A DNA stretch of 62,328 nt, filler included, from Stramenopiles sp. TOSAG23-6 (lineage: Eukaryota): assembly GCA_900128565.1 (NCBI GenBank). It is 33 parts of 33 records of this genome, joined end to end, with 100 filler letters (N's around TTAATTAATTAA, not from the genome) between each part and the next. Parts side by side here need not be neighbours in the genome. Positions count along the whole stretch, not along the records: positions 19,042 to 20,838 come from LT638584.1; 32 more parts are not named here. One strand, given 5' to 3'. The notes under the pieces are model-generated. The model was not told the origin of the DNA and made no database searches. It saw only the letters and a program-made list of their open reading frames with translations. Made by a program: the position numbers and the translations under genes. Of this stretch, positions 1,911 to 62,328 are shown piece by piece; position 1 is the stretch's first letter; each line of letters begins with the position of its first letter.

Positions 1911-1987
1911 ATTTATTTTTTTTTTATAGTAAATTTTGTACCTAACAAATTTTCAATTTTTTTTTGAAATATTTTTCCAAAATACAT

Positions 1988-2715
1988 GGGTTATTAGGAC
2001 ATCGATTTTGCCTTTTAACGCCAGAGTATCAAAAAGCGTTTGCTGAATGTTTTGTTCAACAATATGAAACTGTACATGTACGTTGTCAAATTTTTAAATT
2101 TCAAAAAAAAAAAAATTTCAAAAAAAAAAAAATTTCAATATTTTTTCGTAGATAATTTTGTACCTAATGAATTCATTTTTCTGAAAAAAAAAATATTTTT
2201 TACAATACATCGATTGGAAACGAATAAATTACGAAATGTTGCTAAATTTTTCGCACATTTACTTCATAATGATGGTATACCATGGACATCATTATCGTGT
2301 GTGTCCTTGACGATTGAAACAACAACGTGTTCGTTTTCATTATTTATTTCGATTTTTTTTTTCATAGGAAATTTTGTACCTAACAATTTTTTTTTTTTTT
2401 TTTTGAAATTTTTTTTTTTTTTGAAATTTTTTTTGTACCTAACAAAATAAATTTACATTGACATATTGTATCAAAATACAGCTGCTAGTCGTATTTTCAT
2501 TAAAATTCTATTCCAAGAAATTGTAGAATATTTGGGTTTGAATGAATTAAAAAGTCGTTTGTTCGACCCAACAATGGAAAAATATTTTGCAGGTTTGTTC
2601 CCGAAGGATAATCCAAAAAGTACNCGATTTTCTATTAATTTTTTCACTTCCATTGGTCTTGGCGCTCTAACTGATGAATTACGACGATATTTAAAAAATG
2701 CTCCGAAACGACTTT
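1988..2715 (+). CDS. CWC22: Pre-mRNA splicing factor CWC22, MA3 domain (partial; exons 1988-2077, 2211-2328, 2482-2715)
   Basis: Spliced product GLLGHRFC...[24 protein letters not shown]...[17 protein letters not shown]...[20 protein letters not shown] matches CWC22 signature. Confidence 0.95.
2078..2210 (+). mobile_element. Introner-like intron, GT...AT
   Basis: gtacat|GTACGTT...TACAATACAT|cga; removal restores TVH|RLET of CWC22. Confidence 0.9.
2329..2481 (+). mobile_element. Introner-like intron, GT...AG, two branch motifs
   Basis: acgt|GTTCGTTTT...AAAATACAG|ct gives TTTSASRIF (conserved TTSSSRIF). Confidence 0.85.
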
Positions 2716-3917
2716 GTATGTTTTTTTATACAATTATTACCTATTATCAGTTATCATCATGTTTTTTTTACAAAATGTAAATACTAACAAAAAAAAAAAA
2801 AAAAAAAAAAAAAATTTTTTTTTTTTTTTTTTTTTTTTTTGTTAGTATTTACATTTTGTAAAAAAAACATGATGATAACTGATAATAGGTAATAATTGTA
2901 TAAAAAAACATACAAAGTCGTTTCGGAGCATTTTTTAAATATCGTCGTAATTCATCAGTTAGAGCGCCAAGACCAATGGAAGTGAAAAAATTAATAGAAA
3001 ATCGNGTACTTTTTGGATTATCCTTCGGGAACAAACCTGCAAAATATTTTTCCATTGTTGGGTCGAACAAACGACTTTTTAATTCATTCAAACCCAAATA
3101 TTCTACAATTTCTTGGAATAGAATTTTAATGAAAATACGACTAGCAGCTGTATTTTGATACAATATGTCAATGTAAATTTATTTTGTTAGGTACAAAAAA
3201 AATTTCAAAAAAAAAAAAAATTTCAAAAAAAAAAAAAAAAAATTGTTAGGTACAAAATTTCCTATGAAAAAAAAAATCGAAATAAATAATGAAAACGAAC
3301 ACGTTGTTGTTTCAATCGTCAAGGACACACACGATAATGATGTCCATGGTATACCATCATTATGAAGTAAATGTGCGAAAAATTTAGCAACATTTCGTAA
3401 TTTATTCGTTTCCAATCGATGTATTGTAAAAAATATTTTTTTTTTCAGAAAAATGAATTCATTAGGTACAAAATTATCTACGAAAAAATATTGAAATTTT
3501 TTTTTTTTTGAAATTTTTTTTTTTTTGAAATTTAAAAATTTGACAACGTACATGTACAGTTTCATATTGTTGAACAAAACATTCAGCAAACGCTTTTTGA
3601 TACTCTGGCGTTAAAAGGCAAAATCGATGTCCTAATAACCCATGTATTTTGGAAAAATATTTCAAAAAAAAATTGAAAATTTGTTAGGTACAAAATTTAC
3701 TATAAAAAAAAAATAAATNNNNNNNNNNNNNNNNNNNNNNNNNNNNNNNNNNNNNNNNNNNNTTAATTAATTAANNNNNNNNNNNNNNNNNNNNNNNNNN
3801 NNNNNNNNNNNNNNNNNNAAAAAAAAAAAAAAAAAAAAAAAAAATTCATACCAAACACAAATGTAACAAAAATGTCCTAATTTTTTTTTTTTTTTTTAAT
3901 ATTTTCCAAAAAAACAT

Positions 3918-5243
3918 GTCGATACTCAATCAAAGCAATTATTAGATGTGAGTAAACAACAAAGAAAAACACTCCAAGAATATCAAAATGTTGTTAGAGA
4001 AAAGAAGAAATTAAATGAAAAACTTCAAAATGAAGAATCGATGAGTAAAGACTATAAGAAACAAATTTCATCCTCAAGAAAATTACTTGAAAACGAACAA
4101 CGTCAACGAAAAGCTGAAGTTGGAAAATTAATGCGTGCGATTGAAGAAGTATCTTTTTATTTATTTTTTTTAGAAAAAATTGAAATTTTTTTTTCGTACG
4201 AAATTTTGTACCTAACAAATTTTTTAAGATTTTTTTGAAATATTTTTCCAAAATACAGGTACGTGGGTCATTTAAAATATCTCAACGCCAAGCAGCAGAG
4301 CAGGTCGCGTCTTTTAGCAGACGCATTCAAAGGGGTAATGTTGATGCAAATAACTTGACTGAAAAAAATGATGCATTGCGTCAAGAAGTTCGTCGACAAC
4401 AGGCAGCTGCAGATGCTGCAATGTATGTTTTATTTTTTTTTTTTTTTTTTTGGTACAATTTTTTTTTTTGGTTCAGATTGAAAAATGTAATGTAAAATAT
4501 CTTGGTTTAGAGTCTCGCAGCCGTGCAGATGTAAAACGTTTAAATGAAAAAATTGAGTCTTTACAATCCAAATCTGCCATTTTTGATAAAAGAATGAGTG
4601 ATGCAAAAGCAATGACTACAACAGCTGAAAGTCAACTTCAAGATGCCTTATTTAAAATTAAAAATCTAACAGCTCGCTTGACAGATGTACAAAATGAGGC
4701 AAAGGCATCTGATAAAGCAATGTTTGCTGCAAAGAAAAAACAAGAAGAAGCAGAGAAAAAGGCCCGAGAAACGAAAAACCTTTCTGTATGTTAAATTTTT
4801 TTTAAACGTTTTTTTTTTTTTAGTTTTTTTTATTATTTGTTTTACATTTTTAAAAAACAAAAAAACAAAACTAAATTCTTTACAATGTTGTTTTAAAACT
4901 TTTTTTACAATAATAATATAATAATACCTAACAAAAACATGTACAACAATAATATTTCTTCACCAAACATCAGAAAATCAAAACTTTGACTGCTGCATTG
5001 ACAAATGAACAAGAAAAAGTGAGAGATAAAGAAATCCAATTAGTTACTCTAAGAGAGGAAGAATCAGATACTAAAAAAACATTACAACAAGAATTACGCC
5101 AAAAAGAAACATTACTTGCAACAACAACTGCAAAAGTCGCAGGATTAGAAGATCGAATAAGAGCTGTACAGGATGATGCCAAGCAGACGTGTAGTGGTAT
5201 GTATGTTTTATTTATTTTTATTTACCGGAAAAAAAAAATCGAA

Positions 5244-5275
<32 letters not shown>

Positions 5276-5514
5276 ACCTAAAAAATTTTTTTTTTTTTTT
5301 TTTGAAAATTTTGTACCTAACAAATTTTCTTTGATTTTTTTTGAAATATTTTTCCAAAATACATGGTATTAAAATTGAAAGCTGCTGAAGAACGTTTTCA
5401 ATTAGACGTTGAACGGTTGCGCGGTGATGCAGAAGCTCAACGTCAAAGATTAAGAGATAATAGAGAAGATGGTGATCGTGCAGTTGAACGTTTAGAGGCA
5501 CAGTTGGGTCACAT
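3918..5514 (+). CDS. Coiled-coil protein (partial, multi-exon; introns 4149-4258 GT-AG, 4423-4478 GT-AT, 4786-4970/4973, 5201-5364 GT-AT)
   Basis: Heptad-rich frames join in phase after removing the repeated introns. Confidence 0.75.
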
Positions 5515-9632: not shown

Positions 9633-9948
9633 GCAGTAATGCAACAATTACAGTCGACAATGGACCCACGTATGCTACAGCAGTTAGGTGGTGCGGGTAA
9701 TATGATGGAAATGATGAAGTCGATGGATATGTACGTTTTCAAAAAAAAAAATTTACCTACATTTTTTTTTTACCTACATTTTTTTTTGTACCAAATTCTG
9801 TACTTAACGATTTTTACCAAAAAACAATATTTTTTCACAAAACATGAGTGCATTAGGTGATATGATGAAAGGCGGTGGTAACCCACTCGAAGCTATGATG
9901 AAAGGTGCGGGTAGTCGTGGTGGTGGTCGTCGGAAAGGCAGACGCTGA
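9633..9948 (+). CDS. SRP54: Signal recognition particle 54 kDa protein, C-terminal end (intron 9731-9845 GT-AT)
   Basis: MQQLQSTMDPRMLQQLGGAGNMMEMMK Met/Gly-rich tail typical of eukaryotic SRP54. Confidence 0.75.
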
Positions 9949-18432: not shown

Positions 18433-19100
18433 GTAGCACACATTTTCATGGTACTTATTATGTGGTTGTATGCGTGTAAATGAGCAAAGATAAACAAAGA
18501 TTATGTGGTTGTATGCGGTGTAAATGAACAAAGATAAACAAAGTGTAGTCATTACAATAGAAAAACGTTGAGCGCCTTTTCATAGTTGTGCAATGACTAT
18601 TTGATTATTTGAGTTGAGTCAACTTTTAACTTGTTTTATCAACATCAATAGAAGAATCACACAACGTTGTACACAATAGAAAGTCATTTAAAACCATTTA
18701 AAGCCATACACACAAAGTAACACGAAATATTATCATTACCAGAGTAGTCAATTTATAAAAACAAAAAAAATTGTATCAATATTTTTGTACGTAGTGTGTA
18801 TTATCGACGTCGCCATGGAGCATCCCACCTAGCCGTGACTTGAGCATCAGCAGTTGAAACACGTTTTATAGGTGTCAATGGCTCATCTAAATCATCACCT
18901 CCTCGAATTATTTCTGGATTGATGCCAAAATGATTTGAATCNNNNNNNNNNNNNNNNNNNNNNNNNNNNNNNNNNNNNNNNNNNNTTAATTAATTAANNN
19001 NNNNNNNNNNNNNNNNNNNNNNNNNNNNNNNNNNNNNNNNNAAATTTTGTACCTAACAAATTTTAGTTTTTTTTTTTTGAAATATTTTTCCAAAATGCAT

Positions 19101-20773
19101 TTAGCTGCTACGAACACCTCCATTCCTTTCGGTATTGAAGAGATTCTTTTAAATGGTACAATGCGTATTGAATTCTACCGTTTTACATCTGCGTTGCCTC
19201 CATTTGAGGAACTATCTGTATCTTTCGTGGGTCTTCCTAGATTAGAATATTCTTTAAAAGCACTCTCAGATGTTTTCAATCCAGCCTCATGTATGTTTTA
19301 TTTTTTTTTGTATGAATTTTTTTTAGTACGAAATTTTGTACCTAACAAAAATTTAATTTTTTTTTGAAATATTTTTCCAAAATACATGGCCTGGCGTCAA
19401 GGGAAAGATTAGACAGGGAATCATAGACTCTCTTGAAACATTAATGGTATGGCCCAATCGCATTGCTACGCCTCTCGTAGAACAAGAATTGACGACGGAA
19501 AGAGACATCTTGGAGATTGCACTGCTAGATGCAGAAGTATTTAATCGTGGTAACAAGCCTAATATTTTTTGTAGGGTTCAATTTGGCGAAACAAATAAGA
19601 TCATAAACACTGAAAAACAAATGGAAGAAACGAGTGTAGTTTGGAATACAAACACACCCACTTGGAATACTGAAGTGTATCTACATATAAATCCAGCGCA
19701 GATAAAATCTTTGCCTACGATATCTGTATGGAGTTATAAACCAGATTCTTACATTGGCGAAGTAAATATGCGTTCATTAAATAAAATGGTTGAATGTGAA
19801 ATTTATGAAGATTGGCTTACGTTCCGAAACAAAAAAAATGGTGTGGAAGGTAGAATTCACGTAAAATCAAGATTAAAACAAAACGTTGATAATGATGAAA
19901 ATAATGAAATTTCTACACTCTCTACTGAAATTGGTATGAATATGAATAGCAAACATGCTAATGATAAAAGTGATGCTACTGGTGTATTAAAAGATAGCCT
20001 TAATGCATCAAATAAACATCCAGAAACACCTAGAAAAACTATAAAAAGTCAAACATCTAGTACCATAAATACTATTGAGGGGGTCGGGCTTGGACTGAAC
20101 CCTAACCCTAATGGAAATATTGATACACATATTTTCAACCCACACGGATCAGGGTCTTTAATACAACCACGTGGAAATCTACTCTCCTCTCGTGAACTCA
20201 AGATTACTAAAACGATGTACGTTTTTATCATTTTAAAAAAATCCAAAATTATTTTGTTTTACTATGAAAAAATTCTAAATATAATTTTTTTTCAAAAACA
20301 AAAATATTTTTTCACAATATATATTATCAGTATTTAAAAGTATTTTTTCTGGGTCTGATTTGGTAGAGTGGTTACTTAGAAGTGACTATTGTTCATCTAT
20401 GGCAGAAGCTGTAAATATTGGTAAAAAATTGATTAGTGTATATGCGTTATTACCAGCTCAAACTGAACATTTCCCAGGAAATTCTACATCTAGTTATATT
20501 GTACATGTATGTTTTATTTTTTTTTTAACAAAAAATTCGATTTTTTTTTTCGTACGAAATGTTGTACCTAACAAATTGAAATTTTTTTTTTGAAATATTT
20601 TTCCAAAATACATGTTCTTGTAAAAGTCCAATTAGAACTGACAAAACGAAAGGTAGATATTTTACCTGAGTTAAGATGTATTTTAGAGGGTATGAGTCGT
20701 CTTACCTTTGATGTAGATGTCGAAACATTTCGAAATTCCATGAAACAATCTTCACTGAAAAAACTTTTATCAT
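19101..20773 (+). CDS. SMP-C2-DEP domain protein (partial; GT-AT introns 19291-19387, 20217-20322, 20507-20613)
   Basis: SMP-like GTMRIEF...PPFEELSVSF...VWPNRI; C2-like TPTWNTE; DEP-like FSGSDLVEWL. Confidence 0.7.
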
Positions 20774-20938
20774 GTATGTTTTATTTTTTTTTTAACAAAA
20801 AAATCGATTTTTTTTTTCGTACGAAATTTTGTACCTAANNNNNNNNNNNNNNNNNNNNNNNNNNNNNNNNNNNNNNNNNNNNTTAATTAATTAANNNNNN
20901 NNNNNNNNNNNNNNNNNNNNNNNNNNNNNNNNNNNNNN

Positions 20939-21768
20939 CAAAGTAGTAGATGAAGCTCTAATATCGAAAAATTTGAAAATATGTTCCCAATGTTCACAAG
21001 AAGATTCTAGGCTAGCACGGCATCTCTTAGAGGAACATTTTTTTCGTGCAATAGATCATATTGATGTAAGTTATGAATTACCCGCTCAGTGTATACTTCG
21101 ACGCGAAAAGGATTGTTTTCATGATTTTGAAAAGAACAAGCATCGCATAAGCTATTCACAGCATTCATGCGCATAATGGTTCAAAATTGCACATGGGTGG
21201 TAAAAGCAATATATTTTCTAGAAATTGTTACAAAGGGTCGAAAGAAACAGAAAAAAGAAGAAATGAGTGCCTTAGTTTAGCCCAAACATGTTTCCCTATA
21301 GATTCTAGTGAACAAGCGAAACACCTTAATGAGGTGTTTGTATCGCAATATTGCAATGCTCTTGTTTGTGACTTGGGTACCCATCATAAACTTCATAGTA
21401 TTAAAGAAACAAAATTTCTAGAAAACAAATCGTTAGGTACGGAATTTAGTAGTAAAAAGAACAAAAATAAGTACGTAGGCTCTGCTTCAATGCTATCAAA
21501 GACAATAACAAAAACTTTAGATAAAGAAGCTTGGAGTAACGTTTTCATCTACATTCTAGTGGCAATAAGTCTTTACTTTTTTGTTATGAATTTTATTGAA
21601 AAAGTTTGGAGAGTTTCACCATGTGATGAATTTGGTCGTAATCCTATTGTTACATCTAGCACATATTCTCTAATAAGTTCATACTTTCGGCCTCTCTTTT
21701 CTTTTTTAAAATATATATATAATGGATGTAGAAAATTATTTCAACAAGCAAAACATAAAATTACTTGA
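20939..21768 (+). CDS. Hypothetical protein with C-terminal TM segment (3' part, frameshift near 21170)
   Basis: Two adjacent ORFs in different frames. Confidence 0.5.
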
Positions 21769-21859
21769 TTGTCACAATAAACTTGAAAAAATATTTATTT
21801 TTTTTAATTTTTTGGAATCAAAAAAATCAAAAAATAGTAATTAAAATTTGTTTTTAAAA

Positions 21860-35122: not shown

Positions 35123-35266
35123 AAAATAAATAAATAAAAATGAAACATTTACTAATCATAAATTATTAAAAATCAAAGCATTAAGAGTAAACAGTGAAGA
35201 AAGAAACATTGAAGTTTCATACTTTTTTGCATTTGATCGTGCCCTTATTCTCTGAGGAGTTATCTC

Positions 35267-35288
35267 AGGGTTAGGGTTAGGGTTAGGG
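35267..35288 (+). repeat. (TTAGGG)n tract running into a gap
   Basis: AGGGTTAGGGTTAGGGTTAGGG then Ns. Confidence 0.9.
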
Positions 35289-35659
35289 NNNNNNNNACAT
35301 CCAAAGACAGTTCGATAGGCCAATGGTCCGAAACTGATTTAATTTGATTCCTTGAAAGCTGATATTCGGAACCAAAATCAAATGGCTGAACTCCAGTAAT
35401 TCATGTATAGTTAACAAATATGCAAAATTCATAATTTGTTTAATATAAAACCATTTTCAATGAAAAAAATTGACAAATTTGAAATTCCAAATTGAAATTG
35501 AAATCTGAATCGTTTTCAATGAAAAAAATCATTCGGTGAATCGTTTTCAATGAAAAAAAAATAAATTTGACAAATTTGAAATTGAAATGAATGCCCAACA
35601 CGCTATGTAGGCGGGTCAAAACATGTTAGTTAGGGTGAGGGTTAGGGTCGAAAACGGAC

Positions 35660-56917: not shown

Positions 56918-57806
56918 TTACTCTACCATGATAATAATCCTAAAAAAGCACTTGAACTCGCTGCTGCTGCAACTGAAGTCAATAAATATGCGTATGTTTT
57001 ATTTATTTTTTTTTTAACCGAAAAAAAAAAATCGACTTTTTTTTTTTCATACGAAATTTTGTACCTAACAATTTTTTTTTTTACGGAAAATTTTTTTTGA
57101 AATATTTTTTCAAAGTAAACAGATTGGTTTTGGAAACACCGACTAGGAAAATGTTATTATAGATTAGGTTTGTACAGAGATGCCGAGAAACAATTTATGA
57201 GCGCACAAAAACAACAAAATATGACAATAATTATATTAGATTTGGCCAAAGTTTGTATGTGTTTGTCATTCATAATTTTTTTTTTGGTTTCGTACGAAAT
57301 GTTGTACCTAACAATTTAAAAAAAAATTTTGAAATTTTTGAAATTTTTTTTTTGTACGAAATTTTGTACCTAACATTTTTTTTAAAAAAAATTTTGAAAT
57401 ATTTTCCAAAAATATATTTCTGAAAATGGACCAACCAAATTCTGCATTAAAAATATATACCGACTATTTAAACAAATATCCAGGAAATGTTTCAATTCTG
57501 CGTGCAAAAGCTCGAATTTTAGATATGTTGCAAAATACTGAACAATCAACAATTTTATACAAACAAATTCTACGCGTTGATGTTTGTTTCCATGATACAT
57601 TTCAAAAAAAAACAATTTCGTACGAAATTCTGTACCTAACAATTTTTTTTAGACTTTTTCTCCAATATTTTTTCACAATTTATGCTGCATGTATTGAATC
57701 TATTTCATGTCTTGCAACCAATCATTTTTATTCAGATCAACCTGAAGTTGCACTTTTTTACTATAGACGTTTGGTACAAATGAATGTGTACATTTTTTTT
57801 ATACCT

Positions 57807-57838
<32 letters not shown>

Positions 57839-58465
57839 CATACCTGCCCATTTATTTTGATGTTATATGTGTGTGATATATTTTTTACGCTACATATGAG
57901 TGCTATATGGAACAATATTGGACAAGTAGCCATTGGGATTGGTGACTTAGGCTTAGCGTACCAAACTTTTAAAATTTCTCTTTCTATTGACTCAAATAAT
58001 TGTGATGCGTATGTATGTTTTTTTATTTTCAAATACGATTTTTTTTTTTTTGGTTTCGTACGAAATTTTGTACCTAAAAAAAAATATTTTTTTTTATTTT
58101 CAAATACGAATTTTTTTTTTTTGGTTTCGTACGAAATGTTGTACCTAACAAACATTGATTTTTTTTTTGAAATATTTTTCCAAAATACATACAAATCTTG
58201 GTGTATTAGAACTTCGTAAAGGTCCGTTAACCCTAACCCTAATCATGATTTTTTTTTCAATTTTTTTTTTTTGGTAAAAATTTTTTGTACCTAACGATAT
58301 TTTTTTTTTAATTTTAATATTTCACAAAAAATAGGTAGTATAGCAAATGCGAGAGCCAATTTTGATACAGCTGTCCGGTTATCAAATAATCATTCCTTTG
58401 AAGCATCATTTAATGGTGCTTTAGTTGCGTATAAAATGGGTCGTTTTCAAAAAAGTTGGCAACTA
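56918..58465 (+). CDS. TTC8: BBSome subunit BBS8/TTC8 (partial, 7 visible exons)
   Basis: DWFWKHRLGKCYYRLGLYRDAEKQF, NHFYSDQPEVALFYYRRLVQM, VAIGIGD, AYTNLGVLELRKG; introns 56992-57120 AC, 57255-57417 AT, 57582-57683 AT, 58013-58190 AT, 58222-58334 AG. Confidence 0.95.
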
Positions 58466-58716
58466 GTGAGTCGATCATTATGAATTTTTTACCTAAATTT
58501 TTTTTTTTTGGTTTTTTTGTTTTTTTTGGTTTTTTATAAAAATTTTGTACCTAACAAATTTCGAATTTAATTTTNNNNNNNNNNNNNNNNNNNNNNNNNN
58601 NNNNNNNNNNNNNNNNNNTTAATTAATTAANNNNNNNNNNNNNNNNNNNNNNNNNNNNNNNNNNNNNNNNNNNNAAAATTTTTTTTTTTTTTTTTTAAAA
58701 TTTTTTAGGTAAAAAA

Positions 58717-58748
<32 letters not shown>

Positions 58749-58792
58749 TTCTATTTTTTTCGATTTTTTTGTAAAAAAAAAATAAAACATAC

Positions 58793-59947
58793 ATTTTTTG
58801 GCATTGCATTTAAATACGGATGAAAATAATTTTTTGTATCGTCTGAAAAAAATGTTAGATATAGTGCAAGTACTACAAAACTTGGCTCATTGGCACGTAA
58901 AATATATTTTTCATTATCCAATTCTTTTGATATTTTTTCTATTTTTGATAATTTTGATATTTTTTCCCCCAAATTTGATATTTTTGTTTTATCCAATGAT
59001 TCATTCATTGTACCATACACAGTAAAAAGAGCATCATATAAACGCAAACCCCAAGGATGTGTTGAAAAATATTTCATATGTAAATGTTCTTCATCAGCAG
59101 ATGATCTATAAGGATGTGGTCGTTTTGGTGGTGGCAATTTTTGCATATAATCAATCACAGTAGGTAAAGCTTTTGTTGTACGTAATAATAAATGAGGTGG
59201 TACTTTCACTAATGTAGTGGGATTTTGTATTCCATCAAGAGCAAATATCCCATGAATATCTGTTCCTGGAATTGTATTGATTTGTAAATGTGGGTGTAAA
59301 AAGCCCCCATTTGTTTTGAACCAAGACAAAAGGGTGTTATATTGAACTTCTTTAGCTTCTTCATTATTATTTAATGAATGAACGTCACTGGAAACAATCG
59401 ATTCCATGGCTTTTTTCATGATTACGTTATTTGAATTCATCGATTCCATGGCTTTTTTCATGATTACGTTATTTGAATTCATAGATGCATCATCATCATC
59501 ATTGATGATTTCTTTTGTATTTGGTTGTGTTGTTGTTTGTATGTTTATTTTGTTGTTTGTTTTGTTCTTTAGTGTTTCTTCTGACGGTATCAAATTTTGT
59601 ATAGTTTCAGACATGAGATTTCTATTCTTTTTTACGTCTTGTTCTCTCAATATAACTTGTAATTGCTCATTTGCTTTTCTGGCTTTTCTGGCGTTTCTTC
59701 GTCGTAAAGATTCTTTTATTCTTTCATCAAGAGCACTGTCACTTTTAGTTTTCTTTTCAACCATGTGAACTTTCGTACTCGACATATTCGTAGTTAAACG
59801 ATGACAAACGAAGAAAAAAACACAAACCACAAAGACAATATACATTGAACACTTTGAGTACTTTCTTATTGTCCCATTTGGCTTTTCAAGTTTACCATTG
59901 GACATCTTTCTTTTGAGTAAAGCATTCAAAGATTCATTTGAACGCAT
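58793..59947 (-). CDS. SET-domain-like protein, first exon
   Basis: LLSWFKTNGGFLHP, HGIFA, LVKVPPHLLL, YFHPYLNAMP. Confidence 0.7.
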
Positions 59948-60551
59948 GTTTAAAATACTTAACGTAATGCTTTTTGTAATATTATATACGTACGTACAGT
60001 CAGTCAGAGCGACACAATCACCTGATTATTTTGTATACAATATTCATACTTAATTAATGATGACGCGCCCCCCACTTAGCTAGTTCCTGAATGCTGTATT
60101 AGGTACAAAAATTTCATACAAATATTTCAACAAATTTAACATTTTTTACTTTATTTCGTGTTTCAAAAAACAATATAAATTAAGAAATTCACTACTACGA
60201 AGACAATTCGCAAAAACGGTGCCAATAAGCAGCTTTGTGCCGAGTTATTAGGTTCCTATGAAAAAACTATAGCAAACTTCAGCCGAAATATTTTTACATG
60301 AGACCTTGACTAAATGTCCCTCTAACGTAGTAGTTACGCACACATCTGCAAACCCTAACCCTAGTCCAACCAAAAAAACAAAAAAATCAAAAAAATCAAA
60401 AAAAACAAAAAAAACAAAAAAAACAAAAAAAACAAAAAAAACAAAAAAAACNNNNNNNNNNNNNNNNNNNNNNNNNNNNNNNNNNNNNNNNNNNNTTAAT
60501 TAATTAANNNNNNNNNNNNNNNNNNNNNNNNNNNNNNNNNNNNNNNNNNNN

Positions 60552-60593
60552 AAAATTTTTTTTTTTTTTTTTTAAAATTTTTTAGGTAAAAAA

Positions 60594-60625
<32 letters not shown>

Positions 60626-62328
60626 TTCTATTTTTTTCGATTTTTTTGTAAAAAAAAAATAAAACATACATTTTTTGGCATTGCATTTAAATACGGATGA
60701 AAATAATTTTTTGTATCGTCTGAAAAAAATGTTAGATATAGTGCAAGTACTACAAAACTTGGCTCATTGGCACGTAAAATATATTTTTCATTATCCAATT
60801 CTTTTGATATTTTTTCTATTTTTGATAATTTTGATATTTTTTCCCCCAAATTTGATATTTTTGTTTTATCCAATGATTCATTCATTGTACCATACACAGT
60901 AAAAAGAGCATCATATAAACGCAAACCCCAAGGATGTGTTGAAAAATATTTCATATGTAAATGTTCTTCATCAGCAGATGATCTATAAGGATGTGGTCGT
61001 TTTGGTGGTGGCAATTTTTGCATATAATCAATCACAGTAGGTAAAGCTTTTGTTGTACGTAATAATAAATGAGGTGGTACTTTCACTAATGTAGTGGGAT
61101 TTTGTATTCCATCAAGAGCAAATATCCCATGAATATCTGTTCCTGGAATTGTATTGATTTGTAAATGTGGGTGTAAAAAGCCCCCATTTGTTTTGAACCA
61201 AGACAAAAGGGTGTTATATTGAACTTCTTTAGCTTCTTCATTATTATTTAATGAATGAACGTCACTGGAAACAATCGATTCCATGGCTTTTTTCATGATT
61301 ACGTTATTTGAATTCATCGATTCCATGGCTTTTTTCATGATTACGTTATTTGAATTCATAGATGCATCATCATCATCATTGATGATTTCTTTTGTATTTG
61401 GTTGTGTTGTTGTTTGTATGTTTATTTTGTTGTTTGTTTTGTTCTTTAGTGTTTCTTCTGACGGTATCAAATTTTGTATAGTTTCAGACATGAGATTTCT
61501 ATTCTTTTTTACGTCTTGTTCTCTCAATATAACTTGTAATTGCTCATTTGCTTTTCTGGCTTTTCTGGCGTTTCTTCGTCGTAAAGATTCTTTTATTCTT
61601 TCATCAAGAGCACTGTCACTTTTAGTTTTCTTTTCAACCATGTGAACTTTCGTACTCGACATATTCGTAGTTAAACGATGACAAACGAAGAAAAAAACAC
61701 AAACCACAAAGACAATATACATTGAACACTTTGAGTACTTTCTTATTGTCCCATTTGGCTTTTCAAGTTTACCATTGGACATCTTTCTTTTGAGTAAAGC
61801 ATTCAAAGATTCATTTGAACGCATGTTTAAAATACTTAACGTAATGCTTTTTGTAATATTATATACGTACGTACAGTCAGTCAGAGCGACACAATCACCT
61901 GATTATTTTGTATACAATATTCATACTTAATTAATGATGACGCGCCCCCCACTTAGCTAGTTCCTGAATGCTGTATTAGGTACAAAAATTTCATACAAAT
62001 ATTTCAACAAATTTAACATTTTTTACTTTATTTCGTGTTTCAAAAAACAATATAAATTAAGAAATTCACTACTACGAAGACAATTCGCAAAAACGGTGCC
62101 AATAAGCAGCTTTGTGCCGAGTTATTAGGTTCCTATGAAAAAACTATAGCAAACTTCAGCCGAAATATTTTTACATGAGACCTTGACTAAATGTCCCTCT
62201 AACGTAGTAGTTACGCACACATCTGCAAACCCTAACCCTAGTCCAACCAAAAAAACAAAAAAATCAAAAAAATCAAAAAAAACAAAAAAAACAAAAAAAA
62301 CAAAAAAAACAAAAAAAACAAAAAAAAC
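60552..62328. repeat. Exact duplicate of contig 58675-60451 (redundant contig)
   Basis: Same 1777-nt length, identical ORFs at offset 1877. Confidence 0.93.

What the first reader, a model, noticed from the sequence alone, without database searches (positions are those of the whole stretch)
20505..20613. Transposon anatomy of the intron: AT target duplication, short TIRs, internal palindromes
Seen: 26 of the 35 AT-ending copies are preceded by exonic AT. The ends are inverted: GTAT(G)TTTT versus AAAATAC, extended by the palindromic AT. Internal palindromes AAAAATCGATTTTT and TTTCGTACGAAA recur. Inference: a non-autonomous DNA element GT...AC with a 2-bp AT duplication, whose second AT is used as the acceptor so that splicing is scarless, as in the TSD co-option model for introners. 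An equivalent reading is a TG...CA element (DDE-integrase-type ends) inserted between A and T with no TSD. End pairing could also juxtapose splice sites in the RNA.
Basis: partly seen in the sequence, partly recalled or inferred. Interest (0 to 1): 0.8.

Follow-up and report, generated by a model that had tools for sequence, protein, structure and literature searches.

The report
Mobile intron family ending in AT
This is one copy of a short, highly repeated intron of an uncultured marine eukaryote that is cut out at GT...AT instead of the usual GT...AG and repeats the two exon bases in front of it, the pattern expected if the intron spread through genes like a small transposon.

Summary
Window 20507-20613 is one of about 50 copies of an intron family 89-191 nt long. 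It has a GTAYGTTTT donor, a GTACCTAAC branch-like core and a conserved 3' block ending ACAT. The window is 33 short contigs of an AT-rich eukaryote joined by linkers.

Removing GT...AT keeps the reading frame in 24 of 25 copies. It gives a gapless 337-aa HSP70 alignment and the conserved residue of an ORC1 homologue. One polyA RNA contig joins exons at 19099/19100.

Of 37 verified introns, 31 end in AT. Exonic AT precedes 24 of these 31, against 1 of the 6 AG-ending introns (Fisher p 0.009). The repeat does not extend beyond 2 nt.

Full copies in unrelated genes are up to 86% identical. In seawater DNA and non-polyA RNA runs, element words are 10^3-10^4 times deeper than exon words.

Best reading: an introner-like element that brings donor and branch site and uses the duplicated AT as acceptor. 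A transposase-made target duplication is plausible but not shown: I found no empty site and no autonomous element. The inverted ends are only 4+4 bp without covariation, and the palindromes are subfamily-specific. The TG...CA and AT-AC readings are disfavoured.

The parts
20505..20506 (+). Exonic AT directly before the donor; identical to the last two intron bases
   Evidence: exon AT precedes 24 of 31 AT-ending introns
20507..20613 (+). The intron copy of the finding (107 nt, GT...AT, phase 0)
   Evidence: open frames of 74 codons on each side join in frame when 20507-20613 is removed
20507..20515 (+). Donor block GTATGTTTT (family consensus GTAYGTTTT)
20532..20545 (+). Imperfect copy of the AAAAATCGATTTTT palindrome (1 mismatch)
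20548..20559 (+). Palindrome TTTCGTACGAAA
20564..20572 (+). GTACCTAAC, branch-site-like core, 41 nt before the 3' end
   Evidence: resemblance to the yeast TACTAAC box is recalled, not tested
20591..20613 (+). Conserved 3' block TGAAATATTTTTCCAAAATACAT ending in the AT acceptor
   Evidence: this 23-mer occurs 14 times in the window
19291..19387 (+). Second full copy in the same gene (AT|GT...AT)
19042..19100 (+). 3' part of a copy at the contig start; its 3' boundary is seen spliced in RNA
   Evidence: run X6 (polyA RNA) record 11 lies on 19099-19218 and carries 31 unrelated letters before it
20217..20322 (+). Degenerate family member in the same gene (AT|GTACG...ATATAT)
   Evidence: read by eye for the frame; listed
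20774..20838 (+). 5' part of a near-identical copy cut by the contig end
42349..42465 (+). Family intron in an HSP70 gene
   Evidence: spliced protein aligns without gaps to P0057
42579..42678 (+). Family intron in the HSP70 gene (ends ATATAT)
46409..46599 (-). Family intron in an ORC1-like gene, preceded by TC rather than AT; tests the register
   Evidence: homologue reads R-I-V-F, as after GT...AT removal
4423..4478 (+). Short degenerate member ending CAGAT; the frame requires the AT, not the AG 2 nt upstream
21395..21474 (-). Degenerate copy lying antisense inside a homologue-supported plus-strand coding region, read through in frame

Best explanation
Window 20507-20613 is a copy of a high-copy spliceosomal intron family (an introner-like element) in the compact, AT-rich nuclear genome of an uncultured marine eukaryote.

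Each copy carries its own donor (GTAYGTTTT) and a branch-site-like box (GTACCTAAC). It is removed as GT...AT, so the acceptor dinucleotide is AT, not AG.

The terminal AT repeats the last two bases of the upstream exon. The most likely reason is that the family spread by insertion at the DNA level into (C)AT|G(T) sites, leaving a 2-bp AT repeat whose second copy serves as the acceptor. Splicing then restores the original coding sequence.

Shown: the repeated family, scarless GT...AT removal, the AT repeat and its link to AT-ending introns.

Inferred: DNA-level insertion, the AT being a target-site duplication, and any role of the short inverted ends or the palindromes.
For: Family.
- 55 nhmmer hits.
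- A 23-mer 3' block occurs 14 times and a 16-mer core 26 times.
- Full copies in different contigs are up to 86% identical; composition-matched shuffles reach at most 64%.
- 14 of 66 contig ends lie in family hits.

Abundance.
- In three seawater runs (DNA X3, non-polyA RNA X7 and X8), 684-1875 contigs lie on the stretch.
- The three element-core bins reach summed word depths of about 690-42,000, against 0-5 for exon-only bins.
- The polyA RNA run X6 shows no such excess (0.5-4.4 against 1.1-3.3).

Splicing.
- Removing GT...AT, or GT...AG, joins the best open frames in 24 of 25 copies with HMM-defined 3' ends. The 25th fits an AG 2 nt further on.
- HSP70 with both introns removed aligns over 337 aa with 0 gaps.
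- The ORC1 homologue supports removal of exactly 46599..46409.
- A polyA RNA contig joins foreign exon sequence to 19099.

Repeat.
- Exon AT precedes 24 of 31 AT-ending introns, against 1 of 6 AG-ending introns (Fisher p 0.009).
- Exon(-1) equals intron(-1) in 31 of 37 introns, against 27.8 expected (permutation p 0.006).
- There is no locus-specific match at -3 to -5.
- Flanks show the palindromic preference C(-3) in 11 of 31 (p 0.009) and G(+1) in 16 of 31 (p 7e-5).

Orientation. One degenerate copy lies antisense inside a real coding region, which an RNA-only route does not predict.

Precedent. Co-option of a target duplication as a splice site is described for introners (PMC11282704 passages; PMC9860276 passages). 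A TA-flanked, inverted-repeat origin was proposed for Physarum U12-type introns (bioRxiv 10.1101/2020.10.12.336362 passages).
Against: - No empty site, presence/absence allele or autonomous element was found.
- Because the repeat is a constant AT, it fits the situation that PMC9860276 calls ambiguous between a duplication and a preferred insertion site. Only position -1 gives a locus-specific signal, and that rests on 6 AG-ending introns.
- Under simple duplication followed by a T-to-G change, AG-ending family members should still be preceded by AT. The three in-register ATACAG copies are preceded by GT, AA and GC (56992 ends AAACAG, 2 nt out of register).
- The inverted ends are 4+4 bp. They are weaker in one subfamily and show no compensatory change.
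- The antisense copy is flanked by AC...AT, not AT...AT, and is a single degenerate case.
- All counts come from 62 kb of one fragmented assembly, and the introns were found by looking for the family.
Confidence: 0.6

Rival explanations
1. RNA-mediated spread. Excised introns reverse-splice into transcripts at sites resembling the ligated-exon consensus (C)AT|G(T) and are copied back into DNA. The exonic AT is then a site preference, not a duplication, and the intron is simply GT...AT.
For: - All but one of the copies examined are in the sense orientation inside genes.
- Flank conservation decays symmetrically around the junction, like a protosplice consensus: C 11 of 31, A 24 of 31, T 30 of 31 | G 16 of 31.
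- This route was proposed for fungal introner-like elements (PMC9860276 passages).
Against: - It does not explain why the exon's AT equals the intron's last two bases, nor why AG-ending introns with the same donor and branch box lack it (1 of 6).
- One copy lies antisense in a homologue-supported coding region.
- The sense bias is also expected for DNA insertions in a genome whose intergenic spacers are 16-91 nt long.
Confidence: 0.14
2. DNA capture by break repair. Copies of the element are ligated into double-strand breaks using 1-3 nt of microhomology with the element's ...ACAT / ATG... ends, and no dedicated transposase is involved.
For: - The repeat is very short, and its conservation falls off with distance from the junction (T 30, A 24, C 11 of 31).
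- The inverted ends are too short to look like a transposase site.
- No transposase was seen.
Against: - The very large number of contigs carrying the element is hard to reach by occasional repair events.
- There is no locus-specific match beyond 2 nt.
Confidence: 0.12
3. Not mobile. The similarity reflects unusually long splice signals of this lineage (donor, branch box, 3' block), perhaps homogenised by gene conversion, and AT|GT...AT is just its splice-site consensus.
For: - The best-conserved blocks are the donor, the branch-like core and the 3' end.
- A branch-like CCTAAC also occurs in non-family AG-ending introns.
Against: - Non-signal parts are shared too. Examples are the 23-mer 3' block (14 copies), the A-rich/TCGA/T-rich segment, and up to 86% identity over the full length between unrelated genes.
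- AG-ending introns in the same genes lack the exonic AT.
- Contigs break inside the element, and element words are vastly over-represented in environmental DNA.
Confidence: 0.07
4. The true boundaries are AT...AC (a U12-type or U2-type AT-AC intron), shifted 2 nt to the left.
For: - With the AT repeat, this register gives the same mRNA in 24 of 31 introns.
- The core resembles the U12 branch box TTCCTTRAC quoted.
- GT-AT is a known rare U12-type boundary in Physarum.
Against: - Seven AT-ending introns would then start with CT, TT, GT or TC.
- Six would end AT, not AC.
- The ORC1 homologue has I, not N, at the 46599 junction.
- The in-register ATACAG copies are canonical only in the GT register.
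- The donor has G5 and T6, not the CC of RTATCCTT.
- The branch box lies 41-50 nt from the 3' end.
Confidence: 0.04
5. A TG...CA element of integrase type inserted between A and T without a duplication.
For: The register is equivalent in 30 of 31 AT-ending introns because exon -1 is T. The ends TGTAT/ATACA are inverted.
Against: - DDE integrase-type insertions leave 4-6 bp duplications (recalled). None is present beyond 2 nt.
- As recalled, insertion between A and T without a duplication is a Helitron trait. Helitron ends (5' TC, 3' CTRR with a hairpin, also recalled) are absent.
Confidence: 0.03

Closest known systems
Introners / introner elements with a co-opted target-site duplication (Micromonas, Aureococcus, Chrysochromulina and others)
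   Same: - Short non-autonomous repeats that sit in many unrelated genes as introns.
- They carry one or both splice signals and use the duplicated target as the other.
- They are removed without changing the mRNA (PMC11282704 passages; PMC9860276 passages).
- They occur in aquatic microbes.
   Different: - The duplicated dinucleotide is AT, so the acceptor is non-canonical (GT...AT).
- The duplication would be 2 bp, whereas 3-9 bp is quoted for introners.
- The inverted ends are only 4+4 bp.
- The duplication and mobility are not demonstrated here.
Non-canonical, transposon-derived introns of Fritillaria borealis and Amoebophrya
   Same: Many repeated introns with short direct repeats across the exon/intron boundary and inverted ends. 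The spliceosome tolerates non-AG acceptors, including AT in the AG-AT introns of Fritillaria (PMC11282704 passages; PMC7789003 passages).
   Different: Here the donor is a strong canonical GTAYGT and there is a strong branch box; only the last base deviates. The boundaries are uniform rather than highly variable. There is no 8-20 nt inverted repeat or hairpin.
Physarum polycephalum U12-type introns proposed to derive from a TA-inserting element
   Same: A mass of introns with extended conserved ends that form an inverted repeat flanked by a dinucleotide direct repeat. GT-AT occurs among their non-canonical boundaries (bioRxiv 10.1101/2020.10.12.336362 passages).
   Different: The donor here is GTATGT-like, not RTATCYTT. 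The branch box is 41-50 nt from the 3' end, not 9-12 nt. The repeat is AT, not TA.
Paramecium-type internal eliminated sequences (recalled)
   Same: Short AT-rich inserts in coding sequence bounded by a dinucleotide repeat of which one copy remains, with short inverted ends.
   Different: Those are removed from DNA. Here a seawater DNA contig crosses the exon-intron border 20363-20571 at exon depth (X3 record 5). The element also has donor and branch signals, and the repeat is AT, not TA.

Membership tests
Introner (intron-generating repeat family) | Many sequence-similar introns in unrelated genes | tested here: met
   55 nhmmer hits; up to 86% full-length identity between contigs against at most 64% for shuffles. 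Genes include HSP70, a C2/DEP protein and an ORC1-like protein.
Introner (intron-generating repeat family) | Precise removal from mRNA | tested here: met
   Frames join in 24 of 25 copies. Gapless HSP70 alignment. ORC1 junction. One polyA RNA contig spliced at 19099/19100. The junction 20506|20614 itself had no RNA cover.
Introner (intron-generating repeat family) | Target-site duplication | tested here: inconclusive
   AT repeat in 24 of 31 AT-ending introns against 1 of 6 AG-ending introns (p 0.009). Locus-specific match only at -1 (p 0.006) and none at -3 to -5. A constant repeat is ambiguous by the criteria quoted.
Introner (intron-generating repeat family) | Terminal inverted repeats | tested here: inconclusive
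   GTAT/ATAC plus T4/A4 with one bulge in the consensus. 89% of cells pair but there is no change on both sides, and 152 of 500 shuffles do as well.
Introner (intron-generating repeat family) | Presence/absence of copies between relatives (recent gain) | not testable with these tools
   The protein-guided metagenome scan found no relative. The DNA pattern scan gave one true copy at another locus (L083). No genome is held.
Non-autonomous DNA transposon (MITE) with an autonomous partner | A longer element with the same ends that encodes a transposase | tested here: inconclusive
   No transposase domain in 14 of the window's ORFs or exons scanned. Contigs are only 1.8 kb long, so absence means little.
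Tc1/mariner-type MITE (Stowaway-like) | TA target-site duplication (recalled) | tested here: not met
   The repeat is AT. Exon -2/-1 is AT in 24 of 31 introns and never TA.
Helitron | 5' TC and 3' CTRR ends with a 3' hairpin, inserted between A and T without duplication (recalled; TT/TC variant) | tested here: not met
   In the A|T register the ends are TG...CA. No significant fold.
U12-type (minor spliceosome) intron | 5' splice site RTATCCTT | tested here: not met
   The donor is GTAYGTTT. G at +5 and T at +6 are nearly invariant. Consensus as quoted.
U12-type (minor spliceosome) intron | Branch box TTCCTTRAC close to the 3' end | tested here: not met
   The core is GTACCTAAC, and it starts 41-67 nt (mostly 45-52) before the 3' end. 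No U12 or U6atac RNA is in the window, which says little for 62 kb.
Euglenid nonconventional intron | Variable non-canonical borders with a stable structure pairing the ends | tested here: not met
   Borders are uniform GT...AT or GT...AG. Fold z -1.22 and no consensus structure.
Ciliate-type internal eliminated sequence | Removal from somatic DNA | tested here: not met
   An environmental DNA contig spans exon into element at depth 3.2, like the exons (X3 record 5). No DNA contig among those shown joins 20506 to 20614.

The most novel reading that the evidence does not exclude
A small DNA element with a 2-bp AT target duplication flooded the genes of a marine protist lineage, and the major (U2-type) spliceosome of that lineage now routinely uses AT as its 3' splice site. 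In this window, 31 of 37 verified introns end in AT, and one of them uses its AT in preference to an AG 2 nt upstream. The acceptor would be chosen by an extended ...CAAAATACAT signal or by docking against the complementary intron 5' end. This would be a natural case of a transposon re-setting a core splice-site rule.
Probability: 0.3. Interest if true: 0.8.

Novelty: new variant of a known kind. Interest (0 to 1): 0.62.

Why it matters
Introners are now seen as a main source of new introns, but how their insertion chemistry shapes splice sites is known from only a few families.

This family would show a target duplication imposing a non-AG acceptor on an otherwise canonical, yeast-like GTATGT/branch-box intron. 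In the contigs examined, the non-AG acceptor is the majority.

That makes two questions testable. How does a U2-type spliceosome select AT among many ATs in AT-rich sequence? And did snRNAs, or a factor that reads the 3' splice site such as U2AF, co-evolve with a transposon burst?

There is also a practical point. Gene finders that demand AG will mis-annotate most genes of this organism and its relatives in marine metagenomes.

Tried and rejected
- No whole genome is held for this window.
- Earlier-findings look-ups returned nothing.
- Rfam and tRNA scans of the window found nothing, so snRNAs could not be examined.
I redid the frame analysis with position weight matrices, HMM coordinates and numeric coordinates.
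- An acceptor model anchored without the last two bases mis-registered and was dropped.
Only contig 19042-20838 could be laid. There, RNA contigs gave no cover of 20400-20500 or 20620-20770, so the junction of the finding's own copy was not seen. No intron-free DNA form was seen among the rows shown.
- A protein-guided metagenome search with the 275-aa C2 exon found no relative.
Of 116 loci, only L083 holds a true copy.
- Two patterns in viral contigs gave 0 matches. In genome contigs the first pattern gave 0 matches and the second 2 chance matches in bacterial MAGs.
- HSP70 homologues did not place the organism.
- These introns stayed ambiguous and were left out of all counts: 12097+, 36333+, 37604-, 11620+ and 21474- as an intron, together with 41347 and other tandem-core cases.
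- Literature searches for GT-AT together with introner terms, or for single-cell genome terms, found no report of such a family. Supplementary files were not seen and may list families I cannot check.

Full report
**What the window is.** The 62,328 bases are 33 contigs of 1,777-1,810 nt, sorted by length and joined by N44-TTAATTAATTAA-N44 linkers. GC content is 23-39%. No whole genome is held. Reading frames are open under the standard code. They encode eukaryotic proteins: HSP70, C2 and DEP domains, an MFS transporter, a 2-oxoacid dehydrogenase E2 subunit and an ORC1-like AAA protein. Contig 1911-3718 is a perfect inverted palindrome, and contigs 58675-60451 and 60552-62328 are duplicates. 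I removed these redundancies from all counts.

**The observation.**
- exonic AT;
- GTATGTTTT;
- an A-run/TCGA/T-run segment;
- TTTCGTACGAAA;
- GTACCTAAC;
- a T-run;
- TGAAATATTTTTCCAAAATACAT.

Iterated nhmmer started from this copy converges on 55 hits. The 9-mer core with at most one mismatch occurs 65 times. The 23-mer 3' block occurs 14 times and a 16-mer around the core 26 times. TTTCGTACGAAA has 27 matches with at most one mismatch, against 0.37 expected. AAAAATCGATTTTT has 8, against 0.39 expected. The alignment of 32 complete copies (89-191 nt) shows two main subfamilies, GTATG...CCAAAATACAT and GTACGTTTTCAT...TTTTCACAATACAT. In the second, CGTACG is often CATAGG, TATAGT or CATACG, so the palindromes are not a family-wide feature.

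**They are introns, removed as GT...AT.**
- I defined 3' ends by HMM position and donors by a matrix. On that basis, removing the segment joins the longest upstream and downstream open frames in 24 of 25 complete copies. The 25th (56992) fits an AAACAG acceptor 2 nt further on.
- The HSP70 gene with 42349..42465 and 42579..42678 removed aligns to P0057 over 337 residues with no gap. Pfam positions are continuous across the exons.
- An ORC1 homologue (P0121) reads ...G-R-I-V-F-K-P-Y where the window, after removal of 46599..46409, reads ...N-R-I-V-F-P-S-Y. That intron is preceded by TC. The AT...AC register would give N instead of the conserved I.
- In a polyA metatranscriptome run (X6), one 151-nt contig lies on 19099-19218 and carries 31 unrelated letters before it. 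It is therefore spliced at the 3' end of the copy 19042-19100, with the 2-nt ambiguity expected from an AT repeat.
- The junction of the finding's own copy had no RNA cover.

**The AT repeat.** I verified 37 non-redundant introns: 31 end in AT and 6 in AG.
- Exonic AT precedes 24 of the 31 AT-ending introns. The exceptions are CT three times, TT twice, GT and TC. T at -1 precedes 30 of 31.
- AT makes up 9.6% of dinucleotides in the flanking exons.
- The six AG-ending introns include family members ending ATACAG. They are preceded by GT, AA, AT, GT, GC and AG. Exon AT is thus 1 of 6 (Fisher p 0.009) and T(-1) is 3 of 6 (p 0.0096).
- Exon(-1) equals intron(-1) in 31 of 37 introns, against 27.8 expected from random pairing (p 0.006).
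- Positions -3 to -5 show no locus-specific match, so any duplication is at most 2 nt.
- Beyond it there is a weak palindromic site preference: C at -3 in 11 of 31 (p 0.009) and G at exon +1 in 16 of 31 (p 7e-5).
- One short member, 4423..4478, ends CAGAT, and the frame requires the AT rather than the AG.

The exonic AT is therefore not a general donor-side consensus of this organism. It goes with the AT acceptor.

**Which register.**
- GT...AT fits all 31 AT-ending introns.
- TG...CA fits 30 at the 5' side, but six of those would end TA.
- AT...AC fits 24.
- The in-register ATACAG copies are canonical only in the GT register.
- The donor keeps G at +5 and T at +6, and the core starts 41-67 nt from the 3' end. 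These features fit a U2-type intron, not a U12-type one (consensus quoted).

**Is it mobile?**

For:
- Full-length identity between copies in unrelated contigs reaches 86%, while shuffles reach at most 64%.
- Two copies 267 nt apart in one gene are nearly identical over their shared 65 nt.
- 14 of 66 contig ends fall in family hits.
- In seawater DNA and non-polyA RNA runs, 684-1875 contigs lie on the 1.8-kb stretch, almost all on the element. The three element-core bins reach summed word depths of roughly 690-42,000, against 0-5 for exon-only bins. The tool warns that summed depth is not a copy number.
- The polyA run shows no such excess, as expected if the element is removed from mRNA.
- A DNA contig crosses exon into element at exon depth, so the element sits in bulk DNA (X3 record 5).
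- One degenerate copy (21395-21474, minus strand) lies antisense inside a plus-strand coding region. That region has a homologue (P0123, E 1e-11). The copy is read through in frame, in a linker that is 21 residues longer than in the homologue.
- A related metagenome contig (L083) has one copy, again AT|GT...ACAT|G.

Against or missing:
- No empty site was found.
- No transposase domain was found in 14 ORFs or exons scanned. A contig of 1.8 kb could hardly hold one.
- No copies were found in viral or prokaryotic genome collections.
- The antisense copy is flanked by AC...AT.
- Intergenic spacers are only 16 and 91 nt where I could measure them, so the lack of intergenic copies is uninformative.

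**Inverted ends and structure.** The first four bases, GUAU, can pair with AUAC just before the terminal AU. This is followed by U4/A4 after a bulged G.
- The single-copy fold includes the 4-bp end helix, but its energy is ordinary (z -1.22).
- Sixteen copies give no consensus structure.
- The end helix is paired in 89% of cells without any change on both sides, and 152 of 500 shuffles do as well.

The short inverted ends are real in the consensus, but neither an RNA role nor a role as a transposase site is supported.

**Comparison with what is known.** These cases are described in the literature:
- Introners that carry one splice site and take the other from their target duplication (passages of PMC11282704; PMC9860276; PMC12130899).
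- Transposon-like non-canonical introns in Fritillaria and Amoebophrya.
- A proposed TA-flanked inverted-repeat origin of Physarum U12-type introns, among which GT-AT occurs.

PMC9860276 also states that a constant dinucleotide repeat cannot by itself separate a duplication from a preferred site. The contrast with AG-ending introns measured here adds some locus-specific evidence. Five literature searches found no report of a GT...AT introner family. I saw search listings and passages only, and no supplements.

**Verdict.** It is an introner-like family with a genuine 2-nt AT repeat that serves as a non-canonical acceptor. The transposon mechanism, with a target duplication and a transposase, remains an inference (confidence about 0.6 for DNA-level insertion with a 2-bp repeat). 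I rate it a new variant of a known kind.

Noticed in passing
window 1-62328: The window is not one locus. It is 33 contigs of 1,777-1,810 nt in order of decreasing length, joined by N44-TTAATTAATTAA-N44 linkers. Neighbouring pieces are therefore not linked.
   Followed up: yes
window 1911-3718: This contig is a perfect inverted palindrome: every family hit recurs mirror-wise with an identical score. It is probably an amplification or assembly chimera.
   Followed up: partly
window 58675-60451 and 60552-62328: These two contigs carry the same ORFs and the same family donor, so they are duplicates in the assembly.
   Followed up: partly
window 11702, 13048, 18083, 20100, 35265-35288, 35630-35647, 40096, 40192, 46707, 58231, 60353; L083 about 2260-2330: Interstitial telomere-like (CCCTAA)2-3 repeats give 16 matches against 0.09 expected. 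Several lie inside introns, where CCCTAAC overlaps the branch-like CCTAAC. Two AG-ending introns start GTCCGTT and then run into the repeat (58222..58334 and about 35660 on the minus strand). This may be a second intron or repeat family.
   Followed up: partly
window 2329-2481, 5201-5364, 9731-9845, 41347-41536, 46129-46316, 46409-46599, 57255-57417, 58013-58190: Eight introns contain an internal tandem duplication of the core segment (unit about 60-70 nt), or two elements in tandem. The duplication borders lie in T or A runs.
   Followed up: no
window 41537-41552: A possible 16-nt micro-exon lies between two family introns (...ACAT | 16 nt ending AT | GTACG...). It was not checked by frame or RNA.
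   Followed up: no
window 21193-21768 (+) with 21395-21474 (-): A small gene for a protein with a hydrophobic C-terminal stretch has a homologue (P0123). It contains a degenerate family copy in antisense orientation that is translated through. Its linker is 21 residues longer than in the homologue.
   Followed up: partly
window 21177-21192 and 21769-21859: Intergenic spacers are very short. There are 16 nt between a stop codon and the next ATG, and 91 nt between the stop codons of two convergent genes.
   Followed up: no
window 4423-4478: This 56-nt intron ends CAGAT. The flanking frames (79 and 104 codons) join only if the AT is used, not the AG 2 nt upstream.
   Followed up: partly
window 46663-46801 (-): This canonical GTAAGG...ATAG intron lies in the ORC1-like gene and is verified by the homologue. 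It contains three tandem TTTTCACAAAATAA units resembling the family's 3' block, plus a telomere-like repeat. It looks like a decayed composite.
   Followed up: partly
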